From NCBI RefSeq assembly GCF_030384885.1, contig NZ_CP128613.1: DNA of 64,000 nucleotides. One strand, given 5' to 3'. Numbering within the stretch: the first letter of the stretch is position 1; each line of letters starts with the position of its first letter. The position numbers and the translations under genes are program-made. The stretch is from Escherichia coli (GTDB lineage: Bacteria > Pseudomonadota > Gammaproteobacteria > Enterobacterales > Enterobacteriaceae). The notes below the pieces were generated by a model that made no database searches, was not told the origin of the DNA, and worked only from the letters and a program-made list of their open reading frames with translations. Of this stretch, positions 1-14,341 are shown one piece after another.

Positions 1-67
1 TTTTTTAAACATATTTAACATAGCCAAACGGCAGACGGCATCATCTTCTCTCACTGCGGGAATCAAA

Positions 68-472
68 TCAGTAGGTGGCTGATTTACTCCGAATCACCTC
101 AATTATCCCCGTCGTCGACACCGACGGCGTGCGCGGGAAATAGACCACCTCACAAATATACGCAAAGCTATCAAACTTCCCTGCCCAGTCATCGCCCATC
201 ACCAAAGCATCCGCACTGTACCCCCGCAGATATTCCGCTTTCTGCGCCAGCGACTCCTCCAGAAATACGCCATCCACGCACGCCAGCCCGGCGATAATCG
301 CCATGCGGTCATCCTGAGGGTAAACCGGTGCCCTGCCCTTTTTGGCGATATTTAAAGCATCAGAGGATACGCCGACCAGCAGCCGTTCGCCCAGCGTGCG
401 GGCGCGTTGTAAAAGGCGCAGATGACCGACATGAAACACATCGAAGGTGCCGAAGGTGATGACCGTTTTCAT
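68..472 (-). CDS. cytidylyltransferase-like protein (nucleotidyltransferase HxGH motif, glycerol-3-phosphate cytidylyltransferase-like), accessory gene in lateral flagellar cluster
   Basis: ORF 68..505 trimmed to the internal Met of MKTVITFGTFDVFHVGHLRLL; the TFGTFD..HxGH signature is typical of cytidylyltransferases. Confidence 0.55.
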   Translation of the reverse strand: MKTVITFGTFDVFHVGHLRLLQRARTLGERLLVGVSSDALNIAKKGRAPVYPQDDRMAIIAGLACVDGVFLEESLAQKAEYLRGYSADALVMGDDWAGKFDSFAYICEVVYFPRTPSVSTTGIIEVIRSKSATY

Positions 473-474
473 GG

Positions 475-909
475 CTACTCCGCTAATTTTTGCCGCAGCC
501 AGCACTGAACGGCGATGTCATCCACCGCTTTTTGCGCTTTCGCCGTGGCACTTTCTTGCTGCTCGCGGCGTTTGTCATCCAGCGTCAGGGTCACCACTTT
601 TTCTTCGCATGCCGCCGCCGTCAGGTTTTTCTGCATTCGCGTAGCCTTGATGTTTGCCAGCGTTTTTTCCTGCTCCTGCCAGGCGATCACTTTGCGCAAG
701 GTGCCTTTGTAGCCGCTGACGTTTTTCAGCGATTCCACCGACGCCGCCGCGCCCGCAGATGTTTTCTCCACCAGGTAGCCTAACGCTTTGATATTGTTGT
801 CATAGCCCGCGCAAATCTGTTTTTGCTTTGCCAGCTCGACGGTTTTGTCTTTGACCGATTTATCCCGCAGGCGCTGCAATTGCGCGAGGGTGTCGATGAT
901 TTGTCGCAT
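475..909 (-). CDS. lfiJ: flagellar export chaperone FliJ-like (lateral system)
   Basis: 144 aa coiled-coil-type protein directly downstream of and overlapping the FliI-like ATPase gene; position in fliE-F-G-H-I-J order. Confidence 0.6.
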   Translation of the reverse strand: MRQIIDTLAQLQRLRDKSVKDKTVELAKQKQICAGYDNNIKALGYLVEKTSAGAAASVESLKNVSGYKGTLRKVIAWQEQEKTLANIKATRMQKNLTAAACEEKVVTLTLDDKRREQQESATAKAQKAVDDIAVQCWLRQKLAE

Positions 910-911
910 AG

Positions 912-2249
912 TTACTGTTCTGCCTTTTTGGCACCAGGAAAGAGGATTTGCAGGCGGCTTTGTACCAGTTCGAGGGAGGCGGGTTCGCGCATCTCCTGGC
1001 GTAAAAATCGCTCGATGGCCGGGAACATTTTCACCGCTTTGTCGACGCTGGCATCCGCGCCTGCCACGTAGCCACCGAGTGGGATCAGCGGTTTGATCTC
1101 CATATAGGCGGCGTAGTTTTGCTTTAACGCGCGAGCGGATTGCTGATGTTCCGGGCGGGTGACCTGGTTCATGCAGCGGCTGATCGACTGGCCGATATCG
1201 ATGGCCGGATAGTGCCCCGCTTCCGCCAGTTTGCGGGTTAATACGATATGCCCGTCCAGCACCGCGCGGGCGCAGTCGACGATGGGATCTTGCTGATCGT
1301 CGCCTTCCGCCAGCACGGTGTAGATGGCAGTCATCGATCCCGCGCTTTCGCTGTTGCCTGCGCTTTCGACCAGTTTGGGGATCATGCCGAATGCCGACGG
1401 CGGATAGCCTTTGGTGGCGGGTGGTTCGCCAAGCGAGAGCGCAATTTCACGTTGCGCCATCGCATAGCGGGTCAGGGAATCCACCAGCAGTAAAACATGA
1501 TGCCCGCGGTCGCGAAACCAGGCGGCGATGGAGTGGCACAGTTCGGTGGCTTTCAGGCGCATCAGCGGCGATTCATCGGCGGGCGCGACGACGACGATAG
1601 ACTTCGCCAGCCCGTCCGCGCCCAAGGAATGGTCGATAAACTCTTTCACTTCACGCCCGCGTTCGCCAATCAGCCCAACCACCACGATGTCGGCTTTAGT
1701 CTGGCGGGTGATCATCCCCAGCAGCACGCTTTTCCCGACGCCGCTGCCCGCCATTAGCCCGACGCGCTGGCCTTTGCCGATGGTCAGCAGGCCGTTGATC
1801 GCTTTCACGCCCACATCTAAGGGTTCGTCCACCGAACGGCGGGTTAAGGGATTGACCGAGGGCGGTAGCGGCGGCAGAAGGTCGTTGCCGTTCAGGCGGC
1901 CTTTACCATCCAGCGGTTCGCCGAGGCCATTCACCACGCGGCCTAACCAGCTTTCGCCAATCAGGATGTCGTGGGCTTTTTCTTCCGGGAAGACACGCGC
2001 CCCCGCCATCAGGCCAACTGGCTGTTTGAATGGCATTAAATAGGTGATGTCGCGATTAAAGCCCACGGCCTGCGCGTCAATCAGCGTATGATTGGCGCTT
2101 TCTATGCGGCACAGTTGTCCGGTCATTAATGGGCAGCCGACGCTCTCCAGCAGAATGCCGTTCAGGCGCACCAGCCGTCCGGCGACGCGAGCCAGCGGGA
2201 TCGACTCCAGCGAGCGCAGGGCGTTATCGAAAGCAGAAAAATCACTCAC
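912..2249 (-). CDS. lfiI: flagellum-specific ATP synthase FliI-like (lateral system)
   Basis: 445 aa with Walker A GSGVGKS and F1/T3SS-ATPase-like sequence; follows FliH homologue. Confidence 0.9.
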   Translation of the reverse strand: MSDFSAFDNALRSLESIPLARVAGRLVRLNGILLESVGCPLMTGQLCRIESANHTLIDAQAVGFNRDITYLMPFKQPVGLMAGARVFPEEKAHDILIGESWLGRVVNGLGEPLDGKGRLNGNDLLPPLPPSVNPLTRRSVDEPLDVGVKAINGLLTIGKGQRVGLMAGSGVGKSVLLGMITRQTKADIVVVGLIGERGREVKEFIDHSLGADGLAKSIVVVAPADESPLMRLKATELCHSIAAWFRDRGHHVLLLVDSLTRYAMAQREIALSLGEPPATKGYPPSAFGMIPKLVESAGNSESAGSMTAIYTVLAEGDDQQDPIVDCARAVLDGHIVLTRKLAEAGHYPAIDIGQSISRCMNQVTRPEHQQSARALKQNYAAYMEIKPLIPLGGYVAGADASVDKAVKMFPAIERFLRQEMREPASLELVQSRLQILFPGAKKAEQ

Positions 2250-2952
2250 CCTGCGACTCCGGCGTTAGCGTCTCTTGCAGTGCGGTCATGCATTGTTCAA
2301 GGCGATGCTCGCAGCCGATATCCAGTTCTGATTTATCGGTAATCACCCGGCATTCCCCCGGCGGCAAATCCGGCGAAGGCGTCAGCCCCCATTCGTTGAC
2401 CTTTACCGGCACCGCATCGCGCAGGCGGTTAAACTCTTCCGTGCTCAGCATCACTTGCAGGGTTTCCGGCATCGCCGGGAAGGCCGCCAGCGCCTCTTCC
2501 ACCAGCGCCAGTAACTGCGTCGGTTGCAGCGCCAGTTCGCAGCGAATCACCTGGCGGGTGACTTTCTCCACCAGTTGCAGCAAATCTTCCCGCTGTTTAC
2601 GTTCGATATGGGCGAGGAAGTCGTTCACTTTACCGCTGATGGCCTCCAGCGGCTGCGCCGCTTCAATAAACTGCTTGCGCCCTTCCTGCTGCCCGGCGAG
2701 GCTGCCTTCGGTGTAGCCCTGACGTTGCCCCTCGGCAAAACCTTGCTGATGACCTTCGCTAAAGCCCTGCTCCTGCCCCTCGGTCATGCCCTGAGCAAAC
2801 CCTTTTTGCAGCCCTTCCTGAAAACCGTCCATCAACTGGCGCTGGTAATCGGCGGCGCTAATGCTGGCAGTGAGCGGTTCTCCGGTCACCGCACGCTGGC
2901 GCGGCGGGAAACGGTGCAGGCGATAGCGCCCGCGCAGTGTTTCAATGGTCAT
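2242..2952 (-). CDS. lfiH: flagellar assembly protein FliH-like
   Basis: 236 aa, Gln/Glu-rich repeat region, overlaps fliI start by 8 nt; operon position. Confidence 0.65.
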   Translation of the reverse strand: MTIETLRGRYRLHRFPPRQRAVTGEPLTASISAADYQRQLMDGFQEGLQKGFAQGMTEGQEQGFSEGHQQGFAEGQRQGYTEGSLAGQQEGRKQFIEAAQPLEAISGKVNDFLAHIERKQREDLLQLVEKVTRQVIRCELALQPTQLLALVEEALAAFPAMPETLQVMLSTEEFNRLRDAVPVKVNEWGLTPSPDLPPGECRVITDKSELDIGCEHRLEQCMTALQETLTPESQGE

Positions 2953-2955
2953 GGG

Positions 2956-3966
2956 TTACTCCGCCGTCTGTTCCGCAAAGAGCTGTTGCTGAATTTCGCC
3001 CGCCTCTTCCAGTTCACGGGCGATACCCATGATTTCGCGGCGGATTTGTTCGATACGGCTAACCGGCACCGGACCCAGGCGCGCGGTGATCGCTTCCAGT
3101 TGCTGCACCTGACGTTTTGGCATCACCGCATAAATGGAGCGACGTAACAGGGCTTCGGTGCCTTTCAGCGCCACCGCCCAGTCTTCCATTGGCACTTCGT
3201 CGAGCAGGCGACGGCGTACCTCTTCGTTCTGGCGGCTGAGAATAAAGAAGTCGTACATCTCATCCTGCAACTGCTCCAGCACGTCTTCGTCGCGCTCGCG
3301 CATCTGGTCGAGGATCACCTGCTGGTTTCCCTGGAAGCGGTTGACAATATCCGCCGCCTGTTTGATGCCCTTCACCTTCGAGCCGTGCTCTGAAAGCACC
3401 GACAGGCCGCGTTCGATCAGACGATCCAGTTCATCCACCACGTCGCGGTTGACGTCGTTGAGTTTCGCTACCCGGTAGAGAATTTCGTTTTGCACCGATT
3501 CGTTGAGATAAGAGAGCACCGCCGCCGAGATTTCCGGCGTCAGAAACGCGAGGAATACCGCCTGCAATTGCAGATGTTCTTCGGAGATCAGCATCGCCAG
3601 CTGGCGCGGTTCCACCCATTGCAGGCGCGCCATCCGCGAGCGAATCTCATCGCCGTAGATGCCATTGATCACGCTGCTGGCGATCTCGGTGCCCAGCGCC
3701 TTGTTAAGAATGCCCTGCAACATGGATCGCGATGCGCCGTTGATCCCGCTCTGTTCGCGGAACTCATCAAAGAAGTTATTGATCACTTTGCGTGCCATGC
3801 TGGTTTTGACGCCGGAAAGCCGCGCCATGTTTTCGCTCAGGCGCACCACTTCTTCGCGGCTGAGTTTTTGCATCACCGTTGCCGCCGCTTCTTCGCCCAG
3901 ACACAGCAGCAGAATCGCCGCCTGTTCGAGATAGCTGTTGCTCTTATTTATTGTCAATTCGCTCAT
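2956..3966 (-). CDS. lfiG: flagellar motor switch protein FliG-like
   Basis: ORF 2956..3999; N-terminus MSELTINK..AAILLLCLGEE resembles FliG; start trimmed to second Met, uncertain. Confidence 0.8.
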   Translation of the reverse strand: MSELTINKSNSYLEQAAILLLCLGEEAAATVMQKLSREEVVRLSENMARLSGVKTSMARKVINNFFDEFREQSGINGASRSMLQGILNKALGTEIASSVINGIYGDEIRSRMARLQWVEPRQLAMLISEEHLQLQAVFLAFLTPEISAAVLSYLNESVQNEILYRVAKLNDVNRDVVDELDRLIERGLSVLSEHGSKVKGIKQAADIVNRFQGNQQVILDQMRERDEDVLEQLQDEMYDFFILSRQNEEVRRRLLDEVPMEDWAVALKGTEALLRRSIYAVMPKRQVQQLEAITARLGPVPVSRIEQIRREIMGIARELEEAGEIQQQLFAEQTAE

Positions 3967-5590
3967 TGCTGGTAATCCATTGTCTGAGAACTTCGGCAAC
4001 GCGATCGGTGTCGCTCATGGCCAGTTTTTGCAGGAACTCGAGTTTCACTTCGAGGCCAGAACTCTGGGACGGCAGGCTGTCATCGCCAGGCAGCGACGGC
4101 AGGTCGACATTTTTACGCTCCTCTTCCGGCACGGCGATCCACGGTTCGCTGATGGCTTCCGGTTCTGGTGTGATAACCGGCGCACGTACCGCCGTCAGCC
4201 GTTTCATCAGCGGGCGCACCACAAAGAACAGCAGCAACAGCGCCAGCAGGCCGCAGCCAATCAGCCGCCCCCACGCCAGTACACTGTCATCTTTCCACAG
4301 TGGAATAACCGGTTCGACAGGCACCGCCTGCGGCACAAAGTTGAGCAGTGATAAGGTGAGATTGTCACCACGCTGGGCGTCGATTCCGGCGGCATTATTC
4401 AGCAACGCGGTCAGTTGCGTGGTTTGCTCCGGCTTCCAGTTTTTCAGCGCCGGGGCGTTTTGATTGAGCACCACCGCCACGTTGAGGCGTTTCACCGCAA
4501 AGCCGGGATGCTGAATATGCTGGACGCTGCGGTCGTAAGAGTAGTCGCGCTTACTTTCGCTGTGTTTGGAAAGCGCTTCCGGCGAGCGGTTTTCTTCCGC
4601 ACCGTTGGTCATCTGATTCGCTGCAATCGGCGGACGGTTACTGAGCGAACCGGGCACGCCCATCGCCACCTGATTAGTGTCGCTGTCCAGCACGCTCTCT
4701 TCGCGGTTGATTTTCGGCGCGTCACCGTAGTGTTCCTGAGTTTCGTCGATGGTGCTGAGGTCGAGATCCGGCATCACACTGACGCGGTAATTCCCCATGC
4801 CAACCAGCGAATCCAGCACGTTCGCCACGCTGGCACGGGTTTTGTCCTGAATATCTTTGAGGATCTGATCGCGTTTACGGGTCGCGGCAGAAACCGCCTC
4901 GCCCGCGCCAATGCCGTCGGTCAGCAGATTTCCCGCCTGATCGACGACGCTGACTTTGCTGGCCTGTAGCCCCGGAATACTGCCGGACACCAGATGCACA
5001 ATGGCGTTCACCTGGTCCATATTCAGCTTCGCGCCGTAATGCAAGCGCACCACCACCGAGGCACTGTTTTGCGGCTCATCGCTGACCACAAACGAGCTTT
5101 CTTCGTTGAGCGCCAGATGCACCCGCGCGCTTTCCACCGCGTCCAGCGACATGATGCTCTGCGCCAGCTCCCCTTCGAGGCTGCGTTTATAGCGCACGTT
5201 CTGCACGAACTGACTGCTGCCGAGCATTTCGTCTTTGTCCATCAGCTCGTAGCCGCTGGGCAATATCGCCTGCACGCCTTTCGCGGCAAGGGTCATGCGC
5301 GTTTTCGACAGTTCGTCTTCCGGCACCAGTATCTGCCCGCTTTGCGGGTCGATGCGGTAGGTGAGCTTTTCGCCGTCCAGCACGGTGACAATCTGCGACA
5401 CGGGCAGATTTTCCTGGCGTCCGTAGAGCGAGACGTAGCCGCGATTCCCCGTCCATAGCACGCTGACGATAATCGCCGTCGCCGCAACGGCAAGCCCCAC
5501 ACCCGCCATCAACGCCCAGCGTTTGTTATCTGCGAGCCGCAGTCGAAACGCCGGAAAGGCCTGGGTTAACTTCTTTATTTGTGCATTCAT
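3944..5590 (-). CDS. lfiF: flagellar MS-ring protein FliF-like
   Basis: 548 aa, N-terminal TM segment and FliF/YscJ-like domain; operon position. Confidence 0.85.
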   Translation of the reverse strand: MNAQIKKLTQAFPAFRLRLADNKRWALMAGVGLAVAATAIIVSVLWTGNRGYVSLYGRQENLPVSQIVTVLDGEKLTYRIDPQSGQILVPEDELSKTRMTLAAKGVQAILPSGYELMDKDEMLGSSQFVQNVRYKRSLEGELAQSIMSLDAVESARVHLALNEESSFVVSDEPQNSASVVVRLHYGAKLNMDQVNAIVHLVSGSIPGLQASKVSVVDQAGNLLTDGIGAGEAVSAATRKRDQILKDIQDKTRASVANVLDSLVGMGNYRVSVMPDLDLSTIDETQEHYGDAPKINREESVLDSDTNQVAMGVPGSLSNRPPIAANQMTNGAEENRSPEALSKHSESKRDYSYDRSVQHIQHPGFAVKRLNVAVVLNQNAPALKNWKPEQTTQLTALLNNAAGIDAQRGDNLTLSLLNFVPQAVPVEPVIPLWKDDSVLAWGRLIGCGLLALLLLFFVVRPLMKRLTAVRAPVITPEPEAISEPWIAVPEEERKNVDLPSLPGDDSLPSQSSGLEVKLEFLQKLAMSDTDRVAEVLRQWITSNERIDNK

Positions 5591-5594
5591 AGGG

Positions 5595-5936
5595 TTAGAT
5601 CGACATACTCATCAGATCGTTAAATCCGGTGGCGATTTTGTTGCGCACCTGCACCAGCGCGGAGAAAGAGAGCGACGCCTGCTGGCTGGCGATCATCGCC
5701 CCGGCGAGGTCATCACTTTTGCCCGTGTCGACAGCCGTTTGCTGCTGCTCCGCCACCTGCTGGAACTGGTCAACGTGACCGAGCGCGCCGAACATAATAC
5801 GGTTAAACGACACGTCCGGGTCGGTGGAACTGAAGGTCATGGCGGGTAGCACTGGCGCCTGGGCGTTGGCCTGCATCCGCTGCACGTCCTGCATAATTTG
5901 CGCCTGCATGGTGCTGTTGATTGTGGTAATGCTCAT
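5595..5936 (-). CDS. lfiE: flagellar hook-basal body protein FliE-like
   Basis: ORF 5595..6158 trimmed to MSITTINSTMQ (113 aa); the untrimmed ORF would overlap the upstream regulator gene. Confidence 0.7.
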   Translation of the reverse strand: MSITTINSTMQAQIMQDVQRMQANAQAPVLPAMTFSSTDPDVSFNRIMFGALGHVDQFQQVAEQQQTAVDTGKSDDLAGAMIASQQASLSFSALVQVRNKIATGFNDLMSMSI

Positions 5937-5950
5937 TTTTAACTTCCGGG

Positions 5951-6937
5951 TCAGGAGAAAACTTCGATACCGTGCTTGCGCATGGAGGCCAGTCGATAGC
6001 GCAGGGCACGTGGGGTAATGCCTAACAGGTCGGCGATTTTGCTGCGGTTGCCCTGATATTTGCGCATCAGGTCGGCGATATATTGATACTGCGCGCTTCG
6101 TCCGTGCTGGCCTAAATCGCCGGTTTCGGCAATGTGGACGGCGGGCTGAACAGGCCATTGCAGTTCACTGTGGTCAGCAATATCGGTGTCCGGCAGGCCT
6201 AATGCATCCGGGTAAATTACGCCGTCGCGATTTAAAATCATTCCCCGCTGAATGGCGTTTTCCAGTTGGCGCACGTTACCGGGCCAGCGGTAATTAAGCA
6301 GCGCACGGCGGGTGGATTCGGACAGGGTGATATTTTTCACCAGCACCGTGGAGTATTTTTTAATAAATGACTCTGCCAGCGGAATAATATCGTTCAGGCG
6401 TTCACGCAGTGGCGGCATGGTAATAGGGATAACCGCCAGACGATAATAGAGATCTTCACGAAAACGTCCGGCGGCAACTTCCTGCTCCAGGTTTTTATTG
6501 GTGCAGGCAATCAGGCGAAAATTGAGTTTGATTTGTCGGTTACTGCCTAATCGCTCAACCTGTTGTTCCTGCAATACGCGTAATATTTTGGCCTGTAGCG
6601 CCAGCGGCATTTCACCAATTTCATCGAGTAATAAGGTGCCGTTATTTGCCAGTTCCATTTTTCCTGGCACGCTGGCAATTGCGCCGGTAAATGCACCTTT
6701 GTCGTAGCCAAATAACGTCGATTCCAGCATATTTTCCGGGATCGCCGCGCAGTTCACGCCGATATAGGGCGCATTATCATTTTCACCAAAGGCTACGGTG
6801 TGAATATACTTCGCCACGCACTCTTTCCCCGCGCCGGTTTCGCCCTGAATCAGGACCGGCACGTTAAAGGCGGCGACACGCTTTGCCAGAGTAAAAGCGT
6901 TAATGCTGGAGGCGGCAGATGCAATAAGTTCAGACAT
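5951..6937 (-). CDS. lafK: sigma54-dependent transcriptional activator (AAA+ and C-terminal HTH, no receiver domain), lateral flagellar regulator
   Basis: 328 aa; Walker A GETGAGKE near the N-terminus, GAFTGA motif (YDKGAFTGAI), C-terminal HTH; no room upstream for a receiver domain. Confidence 0.85.
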   Translation of the reverse strand: MSELIASAASSINAFTLAKRVAAFNVPVLIQGETGAGKECVAKYIHTVAFGENDNAPYIGVNCAAIPENMLESTLFGYDKGAFTGAIASVPGKMELANNGTLLLDEIGEMPLALQAKILRVLQEQQVERLGSNRQIKLNFRLIACTNKNLEQEVAAGRFREDLYYRLAVIPITMPPLRERLNDIIPLAESFIKKYSTVLVKNITLSESTRRALLNYRWPGNVRQLENAIQRGMILNRDGVIYPDALGLPDTDIADHSELQWPVQPAVHIAETGDLGQHGRSAQYQYIADLMRKYQGNRSKIADLLGITPRALRYRLASMRKHGIEVFS

Positions 6938-7061
6938 AGGGTGAACAATATAAGTAGCGACAATAATCAGGATGTTCTGAAGCGTATCACCGGCGGGATT
7001 AACAAGTTTGAATTAAACGATAATAAAAATATTATTTGTTTACAAACAACGAGTTATCCAT

Positions 7062-7144
7062 GTAGGCCGGATAAGGCGTTTACGCCGCATCCGACAATCT
7101 TGCACCGGTGCCTGATGCGATGCTGCGCGTCTTATCAGGCCTAC
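7062..7144. repeat. BIME: two inverted REP elements (GCCGGATAAGGCGTTTACGCCGCATCC and GCCTGATGCGATGCTGCGCGTCTTATCAGGC types)
   Basis: Canonical E. coli REP sequences read directly in the lafK/lfiM divergent intergenic region. Confidence 0.7.
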
Positions 7145-7323
7145 TGTTCGTGCAATGTTTTATGACGATGCCTGATATCTCACCCTTTAATAATTTAATT
7201 ATTTTTTCACCCTATTAATAATTTGCCCCTTTCACGCCCCGTCTATTTAATACCTCACCTTGTGTCACTGCCGGAATTGCATGCACAAAAACGCCCATAC
7301 CATTACAGCAGAGAAAGTAAGCC

Positions 7324-8175
7324 ATGCTGAAGTACAGTAAAACGCCAGGCATCTTTAAATTAGAAGGTAATCGGCTCGGACGCCCCTACCATCGCCTGCC
7401 GACCCTGTTTACGGGGAATTTTGACGTGATTGATTCGCATCTTGGCAGCTACTTTCTCAAAAAGCATCGCAGCAATATCACTTTAAAAAAGATTGGTTGC
7501 GAAATGGATATTATTAATAAAAACGCCGAGTTGATGGTTTCCCAGGTCGGGCATCTGGCGTTTGATATTGATCGTTCCTTATTGTTAATGCTGCTGGGTA
7601 ATTTTTATGGTCTGGAATCGTCTCTTGAAGAGGCGAAAGCGCATAACGGCCTACCGACCAAAACCGAAACACGATTAAAGAACCGACTCGCGCTGGATAT
7701 CTGCACGCTGATATTTAATCTGCAAACCTCCGGTATTGCACTGAAATTAAAACTGGACAGCAGCACAGTGATTACCCACTGGGCGTATCAATTAACCTTT
7801 ACCCTCGCGGGCGATGAAGAGAGCCGTTTTCGTATTTTGCTCGACGATGCCCACACCGATTTTATTTTAAATCTGATCCGCCACAGTGAGCACAGTAAAC
7901 CGCAGCAGGTGGCGAAATCCGTCAACAAGCCGGCACTGATTAAAGAGATCATCCGCTCCCTGCCGTTGACCCTGAACGTCAAAATCGCCGAGCTGTCGAT
8001 GAATGTTGCCGATCTGGCGCAGGTAAAAGCCGGAGATATTTTACCCATCTCGCTGGGAGAAACGTTCCCGGTGGCGATTGGGCAATCTGAATTATTTAGC
8101 GCCCTGATAGTGGAAGACAAAGACAAACTGTTTTTGTCGGAGCTGGCGGGCAAAAATGAGAATAGCCATGAGTAA
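7324..8175 (+). CDS. lfiM: flagellar motor switch protein FliM-like
   Basis: 283 aa, C-terminal SpoA-like region; precedes fliN homologue with overlap. Confidence 0.65.
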   Translation: MLKYSKTPGIFKLEGNRLGRPYHRLPTLFTGNFDVIDSHLGSYFLKKHRSNITLKKIGCEMDIINKNAELMVSQVGHLAFDIDRSLLLMLLGNFYGLESSLEEAKAHNGLPTKTETRLKNRLALDICTLIFNLQTSGIALKLKLDSSTVITHWAYQLTFTLAGDEESRFRILLDDAHTDFILNLIRHSEHSKPQQVAKSVNKPALIKEIIRSLPLTLNVKIAELSMNVADLAQVKAGDILPISLGETFPVAIGQSELFSALIVEDKDKLFLSELAGKNENSHE

Positions 8176-8539
8176 GCAAGAAGATATTTTAGCCGGGGAT
8201 TTTGGCCTCACCGATGACGTTGCGCCTGTCACGAAATCCGCCGACGCCGAAACGCTGGTCACCCGCCTGGAGGACCGTTTTTCCGACTCGATGACGCTGC
8301 TGAAACGCATTCCGGTGACCTTAACGCTGGAAGTCTCCTCGGTGGAAATCATGTTAGCCGACCTGCTGAACATCGACGATGACACGGTGATTGAACTGGA
8401 TAAACTCGCCGGGGAGCCGCTGGATATCAAAGTGAACAATATCCTGCTGGGCAAAGCGGAAGTGGTAGTGGTCAACGAGAAGTACGGCCTGCGCGTGCTG
8501 GAGTTTAACACCCGCGATATCAACGACCTGGCGCCATGA
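8156..8539 (+). CDS. lfiN: flagellar motor switch protein FliN-like
   Basis: 127 aa, SpoA/FliN C-terminal domain. Confidence 0.8.
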   Translation: MRIAMSKQEDILAGDFGLTDDVAPVTKSADAETLVTRLEDRFSDSMTLLKRIPVTLTLEVSSVEIMLADLLNIDDDTVIELDKLAGEPLDIKVNNILLGKAEVVVVNEKYGLRVLEFNTRDINDLAP

Positions 8540-9288
8540 AACGCCGCACTCAACTGACGCTGGGCCTGGCGCTGCTGGCGCTCGCGCCGCTGGCATTAGC
8601 CCAGGGCGGCGATATTGCGCTGCTTAATGTGGTCACTCACGGCAACACTCAGGAGTACAGCGTCAAAATTCAGGTACTGATTCTGATGACCCTCGTCGGT
8701 TTGTTGCCGACGATGGTGCTGATGATGACCTGCTTTACGCGCTTTATTATCGTGCTTTCACTACTGCGCCAGGCGCTGGGGCTGCAACAAACGCCGCCAA
8801 ACCGCATTCTGATTGGCATTGCGCTCTCCCTCACCCTGCTGGTGATGCGCCCTGTCTGGCTGAATATTTACGACCACGCGGTGGTGCCGTTCGAAAACGA
8901 TCAGATTACCCTGACCGATGCGTTAAGCACCGCCGCGACGCCGCTGAAACGCTTTATGCTGGCGCAGACCGACAAAAAAGCGATGGCGCAAATCATGACC
9001 ATCGGCGGCGCAAAGGGCAATGCCGCCGACCAGGATCTCTCCATCGTGGTGCCCGCCTATGTGCTGAGCGAACTGAAAACCGCTTTCCAGATTGGCTTTA
9101 TGATTTACATCCCGTTTCTGGTTATCGACCTGATTGTCGCCAGCGTATTGATGGCGATGGGGATGATGATGCTGTCGCCGCTGATCGTTTCGCTGCCCTT
9201 TAAGCTGATGCTGTTTGTGCTGATCGACGGCTGGTCGTTGACCATCGGCACGCTCACCACCAGCATTCGCGGACTGGGGCTGGGCTGA
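8536..9288 (+). CDS. lfiP: flagellar export apparatus protein FliP-like
   Basis: 250 aa, signal peptide plus FliP-type membrane segments; 4-nt overlap with fliN. Confidence 0.9.
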   Translation: MKRRTQLTLGLALLALAPLALAQGGDIALLNVVTHGNTQEYSVKIQVLILMTLVGLLPTMVLMMTCFTRFIIVLSLLRQALGLQQTPPNRILIGIALSLTLLVMRPVWLNIYDHAVVPFENDQITLTDALSTAATPLKRFMLAQTDKKAMAQIMTIGGAKGNAADQDLSIVVPAYVLSELKTAFQIGFMIYIPFLVIDLIVASVLMAMGMMMLSPLIVSLPFKLMLFVLIDGWSLTIGTLTTSIRGLGLG

Positions 9289-9290
9289 TT

Positions 9291-9563
9291 ATGCTGACCG
9301 TTGACGTAGCCGCCGACATTGTCGCCAGCGGCATAAAAGTGGTGATTTTACTGGTTTCGGTACTGGTGGTGCCAAGCCTGCTCGTTGGCCTGCTGGTGAG
9401 CGTGTTCCAGGCGGTGACGCAGATTAACGAACAGACCCTGAGCTTTTTGCCGAGGCTGATTGTCACGCTGGTGGTGCTGGGGATATGCGGCAAATGGATG
9501 ATTACCCAGTTGCATGACCTGTGCATTCACCTGTTTAGCCAGGCCGCGTTGCTGGTGCATTAA
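9291..9563 (+). CDS. lfiQ: flagellar export apparatus protein FliQ-like
   Basis: 90 aa two-TM protein, FliQ-like. Confidence 0.85.
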   Translation: MLTVDVAADIVASGIKVVILLVSVLVVPSLLVGLLVSVFQAVTQINEQTLSFLPRLIVTLVVLGICGKWMITQLHDLCIHLFSQAALLVH

Positions 9564-9564
9564 G

Positions 9565-10347
9565 ATGCGCACAAGCGACGTTACGCAACTGACGGATCTG
9601 GCGCTGGGGCTGTGGTTTCCCTTCGTGCGCATTATGGCGTTTCTGCGCTATGTGCCGGTGCTGGATAACAGCGCCCTGACTATGCGCGTGCGGATTATTT
9701 TGTCGCTGGCGCTGGCAATCATCATCACGCCGTTGATCCCCCATCCCATTCCGCATGATTTGCTCTCGCTCAACAGTTTGATCCTGACGGTGGAGCAAAT
9801 CTTATGGGGCATGTTATTCGGGCTGATGTTTCAGTTTCTGTTTCTGGCGCTGCAACTCGCCGGGCAAATTCTCTCGTTCAATATGGGGATGAGCATGGCG
9901 GTGATGAACGACCCGAGCAGCGGCGCATCGACCACCGTGCTGGCGGAGCTTATCAACGTCTACGCGATCCTGCTGTTTTTTGCCATGGACGGGCATCTGT
10001 TGCTGGTGAGCGTGTTGTACAAGGGCTTCACCTACTGGCCGATTGGCAACGCGCTGCATCCGCAAACCCTGCGCACCATTGCGCTGGCCTTTAGCTGGGT
10101 GCTGGCGTCCGCATCGCTGCTTGCGCTGCCGACCACTTTTATCATGCTGATTGTGCAGGGCTGCTTTGGCCTGCTCAACCGCATTGCGCCGCCGCTGAAT
10201 CTCTTTTCACTTGGCTTTCCCATCAACATGCTGGCAGGGCTGGTCTGCTTTGCCACCCTGCTCTACAACCTGCCGGATCACTATCTGCATATGGCGAATT
10301 TTGTGTTGCAGCAGCTCGACGCGCTGAAAGGTCACTATGGCGGATAG
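9565..10347 (+). CDS. lfiR: flagellar export apparatus protein FliR-like
   Basis: ORF 9514..10347 trimmed to the ATG just after the fliQ stop (260 aa); polytopic membrane protein. Confidence 0.85.
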   Translation: MRTSDVTQLTDLALGLWFPFVRIMAFLRYVPVLDNSALTMRVRIILSLALAIIITPLIPHPIPHDLLSLNSLILTVEQILWGMLFGLMFQFLFLALQLAGQILSFNMGMSMAVMNDPSSGASTTVLAELINVYAILLFFAMDGHLLLVSVLYKGFTYWPIGNALHPQTLRTIALAFSWVLASASLLALPTTFIMLIVQGCFGLLNRIAPPLNLFSLGFPINMLAGLVCFATLLYNLPDHYLHMANFVLQQLDALKGHYGG

Positions 10348-11476
10348 CAGCAGCGAAGAAAAAACAGAGAAACCCTCGGCGCAAAAGCTGCGTAAAGCGC
10401 GTGAAGAGGGACAACTGCCGCGCTCAAAGGATATAGGGCTGGCGGCGAGCCTGTTTGCGGCGTTTGTGGTGATCTCCAGCAGCTTCCCGTGGTATGCCGA
10501 TTTTGTACGCGAGAGTTTTATCAGCGTGCATCAGTACGCGCAGGAGATTAATAACCCGGAGGTGATCGGCCAGTTTCTGCGCCATCACCTGTTAATTCTC
10601 GGCAAGTTTATTCTCACCTTGCTACCGATGCCCGCCGCCGCGCTGCTCTCTTCGCTGGTGCCCGGTGGCTGGCTGTTCTTGCCAAAAAAAATCCTCCCGG
10701 ATTTCAGCAAAATCAGTCCGTTAAAAGGGATTGGGCGGCTGTTCTCCAGTGAACATCTTGCGGAAACAGGCAAGATGACGGCGAAGTCGGTGGTGGTGCT
10801 GGTGATGCTGTGGATTAGCCTGCGCAATAACTTTGCCGCCTTCCTCGGCCTGCAAGCGCTGCCGTTCAAACTGGCGATGAATGAGGGTTTGTCGCTCTAC
10901 GCCAGCGTGATGCGCAACTTTGTCATCCTGTTTATTTTCTTCGCGCTTATCGACGTGCCGCTGGCGAAAGCCCTGTTCACCAAAGGGCTGAAGATGACTA
11001 AGCAGGAGCTGAAAGAAGAGTACAAAAATCAGGAAGGCAAGCCGGAAGTGAAGGCGCGCGTGCGGCGGCTGCAACGGCAACTGGCGATGGGGCAAATTCG
11101 CAAAGTGGTGCCGAAAGCCAACGTGGTGATCACCAACCCGACCCACTACGCCGTGGCGTTGCAGTATGACCAGTCACGCGCCGCCGCGCCGTTTGTGGTG
11201 GCAAAAGGTACCGATGAAATCGCCCTCTATATTCGTCAGGTCGCCACTGAAAATCAGGTGGAAGTGGTCGAGTTCCCGCGACTGGCGCGCTCGGTTTACT
11301 ACACCACCCAGGTGAATCAGCAAATTCCGTTTCAGCTTTACCGGGCCATCGCCCACGTTCTGACCTACGTCCTGCAAATGAAACACTGGCGCGACGGCGC
11401 ACAGCCGCGCCCGGCTCTGAACAGACATATTTCCATTCCCAAAGAGGTGCTTAAACTGGATGGCGAAAACAACTAA
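10337..11476 (+). CDS. lfhB: flagellar export apparatus protein FlhB-like
   Basis: 379 aa, contains the FlhB autocleavage motif NPTHY. Confidence 0.9.
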   Translation: MADSSSEEKTEKPSAQKLRKAREEGQLPRSKDIGLAASLFAAFVVISSSFPWYADFVRESFISVHQYAQEINNPEVIGQFLRHHLLILGKFILTLLPMPAAALLSSLVPGGWLFLPKKILPDFSKISPLKGIGRLFSSEHLAETGKMTAKSVVVLVMLWISLRNNFAAFLGLQALPFKLAMNEGLSLYASVMRNFVILFIFFALIDVPLAKALFTKGLKMTKQELKEEYKNQEGKPEVKARVRRLQRQLAMGQIRKVVPKANVVITNPTHYAVALQYDQSRAAAPFVVAKGTDEIALYIRQVATENQVEVVEFPRLARSVYYTTQVNQQIPFQLYRAIAHVLTYVLQMKHWRDGAQPRPALNRHISIPKEVLKLDGENN

Positions 11477-13553
11477 ATCGTTCCTCGCGCTACTGCGCGG
11501 CGGCAATCTCGGCGTGCCGCTGGTGATCTTGTGTATTCTGGCGATGGTTATTTTGCCGCTGCCGCCTGCGCTGCTGGATATTCTGTTCACCTTCAACATT
11601 GTGCTGGCGGTGATGGTGCTGCTGGTGGCGGTGTCGGCGAAACGTCCGCTGGAATTCAGCCTGTTCCCGACTATTTTGCTGATCACCACCTTAATGCGCC
11701 TGACGCTTAACGTTGCTTCTACGCGCGTGGTGCTGCTGCACGGGCATCTCGGCGCGGGCGCAGCGGGTAAGGTGATTGAGTCGTTTGGTCAGGTGGTGAT
11801 TGGCGGCAACTTTGTCGTCGGTTTCGTGGTGTTTATCATCCTGATGATCATCAACTTTATTGTCGTCACCAAAGGGGCCGAGCGTATTTCCGAGGTTTCT
11901 GCCCGCTTTACCCTAGACGCGATGCCCGGCAAGCAAATGGCGATTGACGCCGATCTTAACGCCGGGTTGATCAACCAGGCGCAGGCGCAGACCCGCCGCA
12001 AAGATGTTGCCAGCGAGGCCGATTTCTACGGCGCGATGGACGGGGCATCGAAGTTTGTGCGCGGGGATGCCATCGCCGGGATGATGATTCTGGCGATCAA
12101 CCTGATTGGCGGCGTTTGTATCGGGATCTTCAAATACAACCTGAGCGCCGATGCCGCCTTCCAGCAGTATGTGCTGATGACCATCGGTGACGGGCTGGTA
12201 GCGCAGATCCCGTCCCTGCTGCTCTCTACCGCGGCAGCGATTATCGTCACCCGCGTCAGCGACAACGGCGATATCGCCCATGACGTGCGCCATCAGTTGC
12301 TGGCAAGCCCGTCGGTGCTCTACACCGCCACCGGGATTATGTTCGTGCTGGCGGTGGTGCCGGGAATGCCGCACTTCCCGTTCCTGATGTTCAGCGCCTT
12401 GCTTGGCTTTACCGGCTGGCGAATGAGCAAACGCCCGCAGGCGGCGGAGGCGGAAGAGAAAAGCCTCGAAACGCTGACCCGCACAATCACTGAAACCAGC
12501 GAGCAACAGGTCAGTTGGGAAACCATTCCGCTGATCGAGCCCATCAGTTTAAGCCTCGGTTACAAGCTGGTGGCGCTGGTGGACAAAGCGCAGGGCAACC
12601 CGCTCACCCAGCGTATTCGCGGCGTGCGGCAGGTGATTTCCGACGGCAACGGCGTGCTGCTGCCGGAGATCCGTATTCGCGAAAACTTCCGCCTCAAGCC
12701 CAGCCAGTACGCCATTTTCATCAACGGCATTAAGGCTGATGAAGCTGATATTCCGGCGGATAAACTGATGGCGTTGCCCTCCAGCGAAACCTACGGCGAG
12801 ATAGACGGCGTGCTGGGGAACGACCCGGCGTACGGGATGCCGGTCACCTGGATTCAGCCCGCGCAGAAGGCGAAGGCGCTGAATATGGGGTATCAGGTGA
12901 TCGACAGCGCCAGCGTGATTGCTACCCATGTTAATAAGATTGTGCGCAGCTATATTCCTGATTTGTTTAACTATGACGACATCACGCAGTTGCATAACCG
13001 TTTGTCGTCAATGGCACCGCGCCTGGCAGAGGATTTGAGTGCGGCGCTGAATTACAGCCAGTTGCTGAAAGTGTACCGGGCACTACTGACCGAAGGCGTT
13101 TCCCTGCGCGATATCGTCACCATCGCCACCGTGCTGGTCGCCAGTAGCACCGTCACCAAAGATCATATTCTGCTGGCGGCCGATGTGCGCCTGGCACTGC
13201 GGCGCAGCATTACCCATCCGTTCGTTCGCAAGCAGGAGCTGACGGTGTATACGCTGAATAATGAGCTGGAAAACCTGCTGTCCAACGTGGTGAATCAGGC
13301 GCAACAGGCTGGCAAAGTGATGCTCGATAGCGTGCCGGTGGACCCGAATATGCTCAACCAGTTCCAGAACACGATGCCGCAGGTGAAAGAGCAGATGAAA
13401 GCGGCAGGGAAAGACCCGGTGCTGCTGGTGCCGCCGCAGTTGCGCCCTTTGCTGGCGCGTTATGCGAGGTTGTTTGCGCCGGGGTTGCATGTGCTGTCGT
13501 ATAACGAAGTGCCGGACGAGCTGGAGTTGAAGATTATGGGGGCGTTGAGTTGA
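11460..13553 (+). CDS. lfhA: flagellar export apparatus protein FlhA-like
   Basis: 697 aa, FlhA/InvA-family N-terminal membrane domain and cytoplasmic domain. Confidence 0.9.
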   Translation: MAKTTKSFLALLRGGNLGVPLVILCILAMVILPLPPALLDILFTFNIVLAVMVLLVAVSAKRPLEFSLFPTILLITTLMRLTLNVASTRVVLLHGHLGAGAAGKVIESFGQVVIGGNFVVGFVVFIILMIINFIVVTKGAERISEVSARFTLDAMPGKQMAIDADLNAGLINQAQAQTRRKDVASEADFYGAMDGASKFVRGDAIAGMMILAINLIGGVCIGIFKYNLSADAAFQQYVLMTIGDGLVAQIPSLLLSTAAAIIVTRVSDNGDIAHDVRHQLLASPSVLYTATGIMFVLAVVPGMPHFPFLMFSALLGFTGWRMSKRPQAAEAEEKSLETLTRTITETSEQQVSWETIPLIEPISLSLGYKLVALVDKAQGNPLTQRIRGVRQVISDGNGVLLPEIRIRENFRLKPSQYAIFINGIKADEADIPADKLMALPSSETYGEIDGVLGNDPAYGMPVTWIQPAQKAKALNMGYQVIDSASVIATHVNKIVRSYIPDLFNYDDITQLHNRLSSMAPRLAEDLSAALNYSQLLKVYRALLTEGVSLRDIVTIATVLVASSTVTKDHILLAADVRLALRRSITHPFVRKQELTVYTLNNELENLLSNVVNQAQQAGKVMLDSVPVDPNMLNQFQNTMPQVKEQMKAAGKDPVLLVPPQLRPLLARYARLFAPGLHVLSYNEVPDELELKIMGALS

Positions 13554-13636
13554 TTGAGGATTCTTTTCCATACTTTGCAGCACCTGACACCATTAATTGA
13601 CGTCACACTGCAAAGAGACTACGATGACACCATACA

Positions 13637-13936
13637 ATGACGTCATGGATTGATAGTATGATTAAGGTCAGCGCGCTAGGCTCTCGTCATAGAAAAACAT
13701 TCGACGATGTAATGACGGAGCCGCCAAAATCTGGAATTAAATGGGATGATGTTGTTGCTCTCATTAAAGCGGTGGGTGGCTCAATAAAAAATAACAACGG
13801 CTCCAGACGAAAATTTCAGATTGGAACGACCAAATTCAGCACACATGAGCCGCATCCAAAGAATGTGATGGATAAAGGCGCAGTAGCAGGTCTTAAGGAG
13901 TGGTTTGTTAACTGTGTAGGGGTAGATTATGAATAA
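13637..13936 (+). CDS. HicA-like toxin candidate (mRNA interferase fold) with N-terminal extension
   Basis: 99 aa; ALIKAVGGSIK..GSRRKF..THEPHPKNVMDKGAVAGLKEW resembles the HicA pattern; overlaps the downstream gene by 8 nt; true start may be an internal Met. Confidence 0.45.
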   Translation: MTSWIDSMIKVSALGSRHRKTFDDVMTEPPKSGIKWDDVVALIKAVGGSIKNNNGSRRKFQIGTTKFSTHEPHPKNVMDKGAVAGLKEWFVNCVGVDYE

Positions 13937-14285
13937 AGCATCGAACATTATCACAATTAAAGGTCAACCAGCCGCAGTGACATTTGAAGCCGATATCAAC
14001 GCATTTCGCGGCAAGTTCCTCAATGTAAACGGTTATTGTGACTTTGTAGCCACAAGTATTGAGGCATTATATCGTGAAGGCGAAAGCGCTCTGGATGAGT
14101 GGATGGCGGATTGTGAAGAGGACGGTATTGCCCCTTTTCGTGAAGAAGAAGAGCAAAAACGCCTGACGCTTCGTGTGCCGCATCACATCGATTCGCGGCT
14201 GACCATCGTCGCCAGACAACATTCCATTTCAAAAAACCAGCTCATTATTGATGTCTTAGAACGTGAGTTTTCAGCCCAGATGTAA
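13929..14285 (+). CDS. HicB-like antitoxin candidate with C-terminal ribbon-helix-helix DNA-binding domain
   Basis: 118 aa; C-terminus KRLTLRVPHHIDSRLTIVARQHSISKNQLIIDVLEREF is RHH/CopG-like; coupled to the upstream small gene. Confidence 0.45.
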   Translation: MNKASNIITIKGQPAAVTFEADINAFRGKFLNVNGYCDFVATSIEALYREGESALDEWMADCEEDGIAPFREEEEQKRLTLRVPHHIDSRLTIVARQHSISKNQLIIDVLEREFSAQM

Positions 14286-14317
14286 ACAGGTCGGATGCCG
14301 CGTGGCATCCGACCTGT
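14286..14317. terminator. perfect 14-bp stem hairpin between convergent genes (bidirectional terminator candidate)
   Basis: ACAGGTCGGATGCC-GCGT-GGCATCCGACCTGT read directly. Confidence 0.4.
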
Positions 14318-14341
14318 TGCCAGTTCGTCAATATTACCCAT

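What the first reader, a model, noticed from the sequence alone, without database searches (positions are those of the whole stretch)
5951..6937. Lateral flagellar sigma54 activator without a receiver domain
The activator ORF starts directly at the AAA+ domain (Walker A within the first 40 residues) and the upstream 380 bp is intergenic (BIME plus divergent promoter), so there is no N-terminal receiver or regulatory domain. That architecture implies constitutive activity controlled at the level of expression or by a partner protein. No convincing -24/-12 sigma54 promoter was found by eye nearby, so its targets remain to be located.
Basis: partly seen in the sequence, partly recalled or inferred. 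Interest (0 to 1): 0.35.

Follow-up and report, generated by a model that had tools for sequence, protein, structure and literature searches.

The report
Receiver-less lateral flagellar activator LafK

Summary
The ORF at 5951-6937 (minus strand, 328 aa) is intact lafK of the E. coli Flag-2 locus. It is 95% identical to LafK of strain 042. It consists only of a sigma-54 AAA+ domain (Walker A 32-39, GAFTGA 81-86), a lid and a Fis-type HTH. An in-frame stop lies 25 codons upstream, and the 386-bp upstream spacer holds a BIME and no receiver remnant.

All 25 enterobacterial Flag-2 orthologues examined are equally short. lafK is under strong purifying selection (dN/dS about 0.05). The closest longer relatives, Vibrio LafK (444 aa, degenerate receiver) and FleR/FlrC (true receiver plus kinase), occupy the same position upstream of fliE-fliF. 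The enterobacterial form is therefore best read as a receiver-deleted FlrC-type activator.

No sigma-54 promoter lies near lafK in the window. In E. coli 042 and other genera, strong -24/-12 sites sit upstream of lfgB, lafB and a lysine-methylase gene. Each is preceded by a GGAA-N7-TTCC dyad, a candidate LafK enhancer. These sites lie outside the window.

The literature already lists LafK among receiver-less activators and reports the lfgB and lafB sigma-54 sites. Verdict: confirmed, already known, low interest.

The parts
5951..6937 (-). lafK coding sequence, 328 aa, sigma-54-dependent activator of the Flag-2 flagellar locus
   Evidence: ORF. Pfam domains. 95% identical to E. coli 042 LafK. 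PGAP annotates the same 987-nt CDS in strain RMDEC465.
6422..6922 (-). Sigma-54 interaction AAA+ domain (residues 6-172)
   Evidence: PF00158, 216.9 bits. Best solved relative is V. cholerae FlrC AAA+ domain 4qhs, E=2.9e-75.
6821..6844 (-). Walker A, GETGAGKE (residues 32-39)
   Evidence: Read from the translation. Aligned to the FlrC Walker A.
6680..6697 (-). GAFTGA sigma-54 contact loop (residues 81-86)
   Evidence: Read from the translation. Aligned to the GAFTGA of FlrC.
6620..6625 (-). Walker B Asp-Glu (residues 105-106, LLLDEIGEM)
   Evidence: Read from the translation. Aligned to FlrC.
6200..6406 (-). AAA+ lid domain (residues 178-246), with the WPGNVRQLEN sensor II region
   Evidence: PF25601, 71.3 bits.
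5987..6088 (-). C-terminal Fis-type helix-turn-helix (residues 284-317), the presumed enhancer-binding domain
   Evidence: PF02954, 35.6 bits. The sequence ...LGITPRALRYRLASMR is conserved in orthologues from other genera.
6938..7323 (.). 386-bp divergent intergenic region between lafK (-) and lfiM (+). It holds no sigma-54 site and no coding remnant.
7062..7144 (.). BIME: two REP units in inverted orientation
   Evidence: Inverted repeats I1 and I3. Absent at this place in Citrobacter and Phytobacter, and expanded to about six copies in L003 (alignment A1).
7000..7060 (-). AT-rich block conserved across genera, 60-125 nt upstream of the lafK ATG, with sigma-70-like hexamers. Candidate lafK (class I) promoter or operator; the exact promoter was not determined.
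   Evidence: Conserved columns in A1. Consensus scan: minus strand 7060..7031 TGGATA-18-AATAAT, plus strand 7008..7035 TTGAAT-16-TATTAT.
5595..5936 (-). lfiE (FliE homologue), starting 14 nt after the lafK stop. Likely co-transcribed with lafK as lafK-lfiEFGHIJ.
   Evidence: ORFs, sequence, annotation of the homologous locus.
7324..8175 (+). lfiM (FliM-like), first gene of the divergent lfiMNPQR-lfhBA operon
   Evidence: ORF, annotation of the homologous locus.

Best explanation
- Identity: the ORF is LafK, the dedicated enhancer-binding protein of the E. coli Flag-2 (lateral-type) flagellar system.
- Architecture: an AAA+ sigma-54 remodelling domain plus a Fis-type DNA-binding domain, and no input domain.
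- Expression: it is most likely made from a sigma-70-type promoter in the AT-rich, BIME-containing spacer it shares with lfiM, as the first gene of a lafK-lfiEFGHIJ operon.
- Activity: once made, it is probably active without phosphorylation.
- Action: it would bind a GGAA-N7-TTCC dyad about 40-55 nt upstream of the -24 element. It would use ATP hydrolysis and its GAFTGA loop to open sigma-54 promoters in front of lfgB (rod and hook genes), lafB (an operon that includes the lateral sigma-28 gene and the motor genes) and a lysine-methylase gene.
- Control point: this makes lafK transcription the main control point of the cascade.
- Origin: it descends from a FlrC/FleR-type response regulator that first degenerated (as in Vibrio LafK) and then lost its receiver.
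- Shown here: identity, domain content, absence of a receiver, conservation, and the promoter/dyad modules in relatives.
- Inferred: constitutive activity, dyad binding, the sigma-70 promoter, and the evolutionary order.
For: - Domains and motifs.
- Context: Flag-2 cluster 1 synteny, and 95% identity to 042 LafK.
- Length: all 25 enterobacterial Flag-2 loci have a 327-366 aa ORF with an N-terminal extension of at most 35 aa.
- Selection: dN/dS 0.04-0.07 against Pseudocitrobacter and Citrobacter.
- Longer relatives at 45-50% identity have a receiver of about 125 aa and also sit directly upstream of fliE-fliF. L028 shows fleQ, then a PAS/HisKA kinase, then a REC-containing activator, then fliE.
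- Vibrio campbellii LafK is 444 aa with a sub-threshold receiver (22-26 bits against a cut-off of 30.2). E. coli residue 1 aligns to its residue 123.
- Promoters: the three best sigma-54 matrix hits in 40 kb of E. coli 042 Flag-2 (15.5-16.9 bits; shuffles give a mean of 0.53 hits at 15 bits or more) are all intergenic. All three are correctly oriented, 32-37 nt from the end of the 16-mer to the ATG, upstream of lfgB, lafB and the methylase gene.
- The lfgB site recurs in Cedecea, Yersinia and Mangrovibacter.
- Dyad: 12 of 26 GGAA-N7-TTCC dyads in 638 kb lie 39-53 nt upstream of such a site.
- Literature: sigma-54 sites at lfgB and lafB in E. coli PCN033 (PMC4578781). RpoN binding at the flgB2, lafA and lafB promoters in V. 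parahaemolyticus (PMC9817140). Many regulators act on laf gene expression in Vibrio (PMC9029033).
Against: - No experiment shows that E. coli LafK is active, binds the dyad, or is constitutive.
- Flag-2 was not expressed in ST131 strain EC958 under laboratory conditions (PMC4637896). Strain 042 has a frameshifted lfgC.
- The target promoters are not in the window, so their presence in this particular genome is unverified.
- My sigma-54 matrix is an approximation of the published consensus. It was not trained on data.
- AAA+ similarity to FleQ (49%) and NifA is about as high as to FlrC. The FlrC ancestry therefore rests mainly on full-length alignment and synteny.
- In Vibrio, LafV modulates LafK-dependent expression (PMC9303241), so partner control cannot be excluded.
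Confidence: 0.75

Rival explanations
1. LafK activity, and not only its amount, is gated by a protein partner acting in trans on the AAA+ domain. PspA does this for PspF, HrpV for HrpS and FleN for FleQ. Loss of the receiver would have moved control to an anti-activator.
For: - The same domain layout as PspF (AAA+ plus HTH; full-length alignment to the PspF model).
- In V. parahaemolyticus, LafV, a degenerate EAL protein, represses surface-regulon genes only when LafK is present (PMC9303241).
- Francke et al. group LafK with PspF and HrpRS.
Against: - No PspA-, HrpV-, FleN- or EAL-like gene is annotated in the E. coli 042 Flag-2 locus or among the ORFs next to lafK in the window.
- The only other regulators annotated in the locus are FlgM, sigma-28 and LafZ, a protein with a ToxR-like N-terminal winged helix. 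LafZ is more likely to act on DNA.
Confidence: 0.2
2. The gene is a functionally silent relic. Flag-2 is decaying in E. coli, and the short LafK is a truncated leftover that no longer activates anything.
For: - Flag-2 is deleted to a lafU-flhA scar in many strains, for example 2013C-4282. Only 1276 of 5426 complete genomes hold the lafK region.
- lfgC is frameshifted in strain 042.
- An IS621 interrupts cluster 2 in RMDEC465.
- No LafA was detected in EC958.
Against: - dN/dS is 0.04-0.07.
- All catalytic motifs are intact.
- The short architecture is the same in 25 loci from many genera.
- All 14 cluster 1 ORFs are intact in the window.
- Matching promoter and dyad modules are conserved.
Confidence: 0.08
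3. The start codon is mis-called, and a receiver domain is encoded upstream, either in frame or as a split gene.
For: None found. Some orthologues allow 7-35 extra N-terminal residues.
Against: - Several in-frame stops lie upstream.
- There is no receiver-like translation in any frame of 6700-7500.
- The spacer is a BIME plus AT-rich promoter blocks.
- 386 bp could barely encode a receiver, and the divergent lfiM starts at 7324.
Confidence: 0.01

Closest known systems
LafK of E. coli 042 Flag-2 locus (CAH19120.1; Ren et al. 2005, cited in PMC6993521)
   Same: 95% identical over the full length. Same position between lfiM and lfiE. Same receiver-less architecture (326 against 328 aa).
   Different: A 2-residue indel and 14 substitutions. 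The REP units of the upstream BIME are arranged differently.
LafK of Vibrio lateral flagella (V. campbellii chromosome 2 copy examined here; V. parahaemolyticus LafK in the literature)
   Same: 48% identity across the AAA+ domain, lid and HTH. Directly upstream of fliE-fliF of the lateral system. Sigma-54-dependent master regulator. RpoN sites at the flgB and lafB homologues (PMC9817140).
   Different: - The Vibrio protein is 444 aa, with an N-terminal degenerate receiver of about 122 aa (Pfam Response_reg below cut-off). By my manual comparison with the L028 receiver, the phospho-acceptor Asp appears to be replaced.
- The E. coli protein starts exactly where that domain and its linker end.
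- motY precedes lafK in Vibrio. In E. coli lafK faces lfiM.
FlrC / FleR / FlaM response regulators of polar flagella
   Same: Best solved-structure match (FlrC AAA+, E=2.9e-75). 45-50% identity over the full length including the HTH. Same position immediately upstream of fliE-fliF.
   Different: They carry a bona fide receiver domain (103 bits in L028) and follow a PAS-HisKA kinase gene. LafK has neither.
PspF and HrpR/HrpS (receiver-less enhancer-binding proteins, type Ic of Francke et al. 2011)
   Same: AAA+ plus HTH only, with no cis-regulatory domain. This predicts intrinsic activity controlled by abundance or by a trans-acting inhibitor.
   Different: Not orthologous. The PspF models score 207-238 bits against cut-offs of 444-529. 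No PspA- or HrpV-like partner gene is in the locus. The regulon is different.

Membership tests
Bacterial enhancer-binding proteins (sigma-54 activators) | AAA+ sigma-54 interaction domain above the curated threshold | tested here: met
   PF00158, 216.9 bits against a cut-off of 20.2.
Bacterial enhancer-binding proteins (sigma-54 activators) | GAFTGA loop, Walker A and Walker B motifs intact | tested here: met
   GAFTGA 81-86, GETGAGKE 32-39, DE 105-106. Aligned to FlrC.
Bacterial enhancer-binding proteins (sigma-54 activators) | C-terminal DNA-binding helix-turn-helix | tested here: met
   PF02954, 35.6 bits against a cut-off of 22.
Bacterial enhancer-binding proteins (sigma-54 activators) | -24/-12 promoters at the genes it controls | tested here: met
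   Met in related loci only: lfgB, lafB and methylase promoters in E. coli 042 and other genera. None lies within the window.
Bacterial enhancer-binding proteins (sigma-54 activators) | ATP- and sigma-54-dependent activation of transcription | not testable with these tools
   Needs reporter fusions in rpoN and lafK mutants, or in vitro transcription.
LafK of the enterobacterial Flag-2 locus | Located between divergent lfiM and lfiE-lfiF in Flag-2 cluster 1 | tested here: met
LafK of the enterobacterial Flag-2 locus | Close sequence identity to the named E. coli 042 protein | tested here: met
   95% over 328 aa.
FlrC/FleR two-component response regulators | N-terminal phospho-accepting receiver domain | tested here: not met
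   No domain before residue 6. No upstream coding potential.
FlrC/FleR two-component response regulators | Adjacent cognate histidine kinase gene | tested here: not met
   The upstream neighbour is the divergent lfiM. In L028 the upstream gene is a PAS-HisKA-HATPase kinase.
FlrC/FleR two-component response regulators | Position directly upstream of fliE-fliF and full-length similarity | tested here: met
Vibrio-type LafK | N-terminal degenerate (pseudo-)receiver domain of about 120 aa | tested here: not met
   Present in V. campbellii LafK. E. coli residue 1 aligns to Vibrio residue 123.
PspF (phage shock activator) | Score above the NCBIfam equivalog cut-off | tested here: not met
   TIGR02974: 237.8 against 443.55. 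NF008622: 207.4 against 529.
PspF (phage shock activator) | Negative control by a PspA-like partner | not tested
   No such gene is annotated in the Flag-2 locus. No interaction assay was possible.
FleQ/FlrA master regulators | N-terminal FleQ domain | tested here: not met
   No PF06490 hit. It is present in the FleQ of L028.
FleQ/FlrA master regulators | c-di-GMP-binding residues after Walker A (the Arg-Asn of ...KEVVARNLH; residue identities recalled from the literature) | tested here: inconclusive
   LafK has KECVAKYIH, with Lys-Tyr at the aligned positions. It also begins after the LFRS-type segment. Binding was not assayed.

The most novel reading that the evidence does not exclude
Enterobacterial LafK is the end point of a stepwise loss of input control: FlrC/FleR with receiver and kinase, then Vibrio-type LafK with a dead receiver, then no receiver. 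It recognises a so far undescribed enhancer, GGAA-N7-TTCC, placed about 40-55 nt upstream of the -24 element. The enhancer occurs at exactly three Flag-2 promoters: lfgB, lafB and the flagellin-methylase gene. The whole second flagellar system would then be switched solely by transcription of lafK from the BIME-containing spacer.
Probability: 0.4. Interest if true: 0.3.

Novelty: already known. Interest (0 to 1): 0.12.

Why it matters
It matters little beyond correct annotation. lafK is the named regulator of a well-catalogued secondary flagellar locus. Its receiver-less layout and its sigma-54 targets (lfgB, lafB) are already in the literature.

There are three modest additions.
- A candidate LafK enhancer dyad and a third target promoter. 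These would let someone design reporters to find the still unknown conditions under which E. coli expresses Flag-2.
- A clear picture that the short form is universal in Enterobacterales and differs from the 444-aa Vibrio prototype.
- The demonstration that Flag-2 cluster 1, which includes lafK itself, carries no sigma-54 promoter. The system's input must therefore act on lafK transcription.

Tried and rejected
- Four database proteins joined a receiver or ACT domain to a LafK C-terminus (P0047, P0065, P0119, P0078). P0065 and P0119 carry what I recognise from memory as the E. coli NtrC N-terminus, P0078 the TyrR N-terminus, and P0047 another receiver-type activator. All are joined to LafK at conserved motifs on short ENA contigs, so I rejected them as assembly chimeras.
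- P0009 and P0011 are longer proteins fused to a FliE or FliG domain. I rejected them as gene-call or frameshift artefacts.
- A sigma-28 consensus scan (TAAAGTTT-N11-GCCGATAA) of E. coli 042 Flag-2 and of the window gave nothing convincing, so I make no class III prediction.
- I looked for the dyad plus sigma-54 module near Vibrio campbellii lafK. Only intragenic, uncoupled hits appeared in the 19 kb held, so the enhancer cannot be extended to Vibrio.
- E. coli 2013C-4282 is 100% identical to the window at dnaQ-rnhA but carries only the lafU-flhA deletion scar. It is not the source genome.
- Ren et al. 2005 (PMC545627) and Kim & McCarter 2004 (PMC419961) are not held. I could not check what they say about LafK length.
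- The word search for 'lafK' alone returned mostly the surname Lafkas.
- Cluster look-up of short relatives from the representative search gave no useful names.
- No structure prediction was run. Sequence evidence settled the architecture.

Full report
**Observation**

The ORF at 5951-6937 lies on the minus strand. It starts with ATG and encodes 328 aa. Pfam finds Sigma54_activat at residues 6-172 (217 bits), AAA_lid_14 at 178-246 and HTH_8 at 284-317, with nothing N-terminal to these. From the translation, Walker A (GETGAGKE) is at 32-39, GAFTGA at 81-86 and the Walker B DE at 105-106. All align to the same motifs of the V. cholerae FlrC AAA+ domain.

In the lafK frame a stop lies 25 codons upstream of the ATG. 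There is no ATG/GTG/TTG in between, and further stops lie beyond. The spacer to the divergent lfiM (start 7324) is 386 bp. It contains two inverted REP units, a BIME, at 7062-7095 and 7110-7144. This explains why part of the query 5500-7400 matched 5424 of 5426 complete E. coli genomes at a median of 12 places each.

Receiver domains of ten FlrC-type relatives find nothing meaningful in any frame of 6700-7500, and nothing at E<=1e-3 in the whole window. The antisense 121-aa ORF 6800-7165 has no Pfam match.

**What it is**

The window is E. coli (100% identity to a complete genome at dnaQ-rnhA). The gene sits in Flag-2 cluster 1:
- lfiJIHGFE-lafK on the minus strand (475-6937);
- lfiMNPQR-lfhBA on the plus strand (7324-13553).

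All these ORFs are intact. The order is as annotated in strains RMDEC465 and 042. The protein is 95% identical to LafK of E. coli 042, the protein used as the marker for Flag-2 loci in the comparative study of De Maayer et al. (PMC6993521). 1276 of 5426 complete E. coli genomes hold at least 80% of the region 5500-7400. lfiE starts 14 nt after the lafK stop, so lafK is probably the first gene of a lafK-lfiEFGHIJ operon.

**Architecture in relatives**

I fetched 80 loci from one genome per species. The 25 enterobacterial Flag-2 loci (LafK 56-97% identical) all have a short ORF of 327-366 aa, even with the longest possible start. None has more than 35 extra N-terminal residues. dN/dS against Pseudocitrobacter and Citrobacter is 0.04-0.07. 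The short form is therefore the selected, functional state and not a decay product.

The next relatives (45-50% identity over the whole length) are 440-489 aa, with an N-terminal extension of about 125 aa. Strikingly, many also sit directly upstream of fliE-fliF. In L028 the order is as follows:
- fleQ;
- a PAS-HisKA-HATPase kinase;
- a REC-containing activator (Response_reg 103 bits);
- fliE, then fliF.

The best solved-structure match of LafK is FlrC (E=2.9e-75), ahead of FleQ (about 1e-63) and PspF (about 1e-53).

A Vibrio campbellii chromosome 2 record carries the lateral locus motY-lafK-fliE-fliF. Its LafK is 444 aa. The first roughly 122 residues are a degenerate receiver: Response_reg scores 22-26 bits, below the cut-off of 30.2. 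By my manual comparison with the L028 receiver, LVSSNLPDM stands where the phospho-Asp motif would be. E. coli LafK residue 1 aligns to Vibrio residue 123 (48% identity).

The most economical reading is a series: FlrC/FleR with receiver and kinase, then Vibrio-type LafK with a dead receiver and no kinase, then enterobacterial LafK with no receiver. This order is inferred. AAA+ similarity alone does not discriminate: FleQ is 49% identical and NifA scores nearly as well as FlrC. The inference rests on full-length alignment and synteny.

**Targets**

TGGCAC-N5-TTGC with up to 2 mismatches does not occur in 6938-7323, and its count in the window is no higher than in shuffles. With a scoring matrix that approximates the published consensus (my own approximation):
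- the spacer has no site of 5.5 bits or more;
- the same spacer in 20 other Flag-2 loci has no conserved site;
- the best site in window 1-14500 scores 11.2 bits and is intragenic.

In the complete Flag-2 locus of E. coli 042 the picture is different. The three best hits in 40 kb are listed below.

| Site in L083 | Sequence | Bits | Gene downstream |
|---|---|---|---|
| 19580 (+) | TGGCACAGCGATTGCT | 16.9 | lfgB |
| 17935 (-) | CGGCACGCTTATTGCA | 15.5 | lysine-N-methylase gene of variable region 1 |
| 32994 (+) | TGGCACGCCTTTTGCC | 15.5 | lafB/fliD operon, which contains the lateral sigma-28 and motor genes |

All three are intergenic and correctly oriented, and end 32-37 nt before the start codon. 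Shuffles give a mean of 0.53 hits at 15 bits or more. The lfgB site recurs in RMDEC465, Cedecea, Yersinia and Mangrovibacter at 13.4-18.0 bits.

Each of these promoters is preceded by a 15-bp dyad, GGAA-N7-TTCC (usually GGAAA-N5-yTTCC). Of 26 such dyads in 638 kb of window plus loci, 12 lie 39-53 nt upstream of a sigma-54 site of 11 bits or more. The remaining 14 are about what chance predicts, roughly 10. A similar pair, with a wider spacing of about 70 nt, occurs in a separate locus that has a long LafK-like protein (L032). I propose the dyad as the LafK enhancer. This is inference only.

The window contains no such dyad at all, and none with one mismatch in 6800-7400. All predicted targets lie to the left of window base 1. 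In RMDEC465 they are 5-7 kb beyond it.

**The spacer**

I aligned the lafK-lfiM spacer across Escherichia, Pseudocitrobacter, Citrobacter and Phytobacter (A1). Two conserved AT-rich blocks appear:
- one 60-125 nt upstream of the lafK ATG (window about 7000-7060), where the consensus scan finds sigma-70-like hexamers on both strands;
- one nearer lfiM (about 7195-7240).

The BIME sits between them. It is absent in Citrobacter and Phytobacter and amplified to about six copies in L003, so it is a variable insertion and not a required control element.

Cluster 1, including lafK, therefore looks sigma-54-independent (class I). This fits a cascade whose input acts on lafK transcription. One candidate input, outside the window, is LafZ. 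It has an N-terminal winged-helix domain in the ToxR/CadC arrangement.

**Mechanism and rivals**

The best explanation (confidence about 0.75) is a receiver-less, intrinsically active enhancer-binding protein whose abundance sets Flag-2 expression. It would act at the lfgB, lafB and methylase promoters through the dyad.

The main rival (about 0.2) is control by a trans-acting anti-activator, as for PspA-PspF. The Vibrio observation that LafV acts only in the presence of LafK (PMC9303241) keeps this open. However, no candidate partner gene is annotated in the locus.

A silent-relic reading (about 0.08) is supported by the patchy distribution and the frequent lesions of Flag-2 in E. coli, and by the lack of expression in EC958. 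Purifying selection and intact motifs argue against it for lafK itself.

A mis-called start is excluded.

FleQ-like c-di-GMP control seems unlikely. LafK has Lys-Tyr where FleQ has the Arg-Asn after Walker A, and it begins after the preceding motif (residue roles recalled from the literature). This was not tested.

**Comparison with what is known**

- Francke et al. 2011 list LafK with PspF and HrpRS as activators lacking a signal-recognition domain (PMC3162934). The Vibrio protein they cite does have a sub-threshold receiver. The statement is strictly true only for the enterobacterial form.
- Liu et al. 2015 report the full PF00158 domain of E. coli PCN033 LafK and consensus sigma-54 sites upstream of lfgB and lafB (PMC4578781).
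- In V. parahaemolyticus, RpoN binds the flgB2, lafA and lafB promoters (PMC9817140).

The gene, its architecture and two of its three predicted targets are thus already described. What I did not find in the searchable literature is the methylase promoter, the GGAA-N7-TTCC dyad, and an explicit statement that all enterobacterial LafK proteins lack the Vibrio pseudo-receiver. These are small additions. Ren et al. 2005 could not be read and may already cover some of them.

**Verdict**

Novelty: already known. Interest is low (0.12).

Noticed in passing
window 7062-7144; L003 about 9400-9950; L083 about 7010-7130: The BIME between lafK and lfiM is a variable insertion. The window and strain 042 each have two REP units, arranged differently. 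Pseudocitrobacter faecalis (L003) has about six tandem copies. Citrobacter and Phytobacter have none (alignment A1).
   Followed up: partly
window 32450-32465 (-): The only sigma-54 site in the window with a perfect TGGCAC-N5-TTGC core (TGGCACATACATTGCC, 14.5 bits) lies inside the yafS coding sequence, in sense orientation, with no GGAA-N7-TTCC dyad. It is probably one of the intragenic sigma-54 sites known in E. coli, or chance.
   Followed up: partly
window 13637-14285 (+): A HicA/HicB toxin-antitoxin pair directly follows lfhA, as in RMDEC465 and 2013C-4282. E. coli 042 has the REP-associated transposase gene rayT at the equivalent place instead.
   Followed up: no
P0047, P0065, P0119, P0078: Public metagenome protein sets contain chimeric 'receiver-LafK' and 'ACT-LafK' proteins. 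They appear to be made by assembly joins between other E. coli activators (NtrC and TyrR, recognised from memory) and lafK at conserved AAA+ motifs. They could mislead domain-architecture surveys.
   Followed up: yes
L075 9953-10978 (Ectothiorhodospira shaposhnikovii): A 341-aa receiver-less FlrC-like activator (49% identical to LafK) also sits directly upstream of fliE-fliF, in a non-enterobacterial genome. This may be an independent loss of the receiver.
   Followed up: partly
L019 9801 and L020 9804: Enterobacter cloacae and Kluyvera have a GGAA-N7-TTCC dyad about 200 nt upstream of lafK, without a sigma-54 site. This hints at LafK autoregulation in that clade. The window has no equivalent.
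   Followed up: no
L016, L023, L024, L025 (Erwinia spp. and an enterobacterial MAG): LafK homologues (56-59% identity) occur without the cluster 1 genes next to them. In Erwinia mallotivora and E. endophytica the neighbours are lafZ and fliA or fliS, with a strong sigma-54 site plus dyad. This is a rearranged or reduced Flag-2.
   Followed up: no
L032 9641-10975 (Citrobacter sp. R56): A 444-aa LafK-like protein with a sub-threshold receiver (21.6 bits) lies upstream of fliE-fliF, in a locus distinct from Flag-2. That locus has its own dyad plus sigma-54 module at 6633/6719.
   Followed up: partly
L086 19641-22110 (E. coli 2013C-4282): The genome closest to the window's backbone carries only the lafU-flhA deletion scar of Flag-2. 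The Flag-2 region of the window genome therefore has a different history from its flanks. The best lafK-region match is only 98.4%, against 100% at dnaQ.
   Followed up: partly
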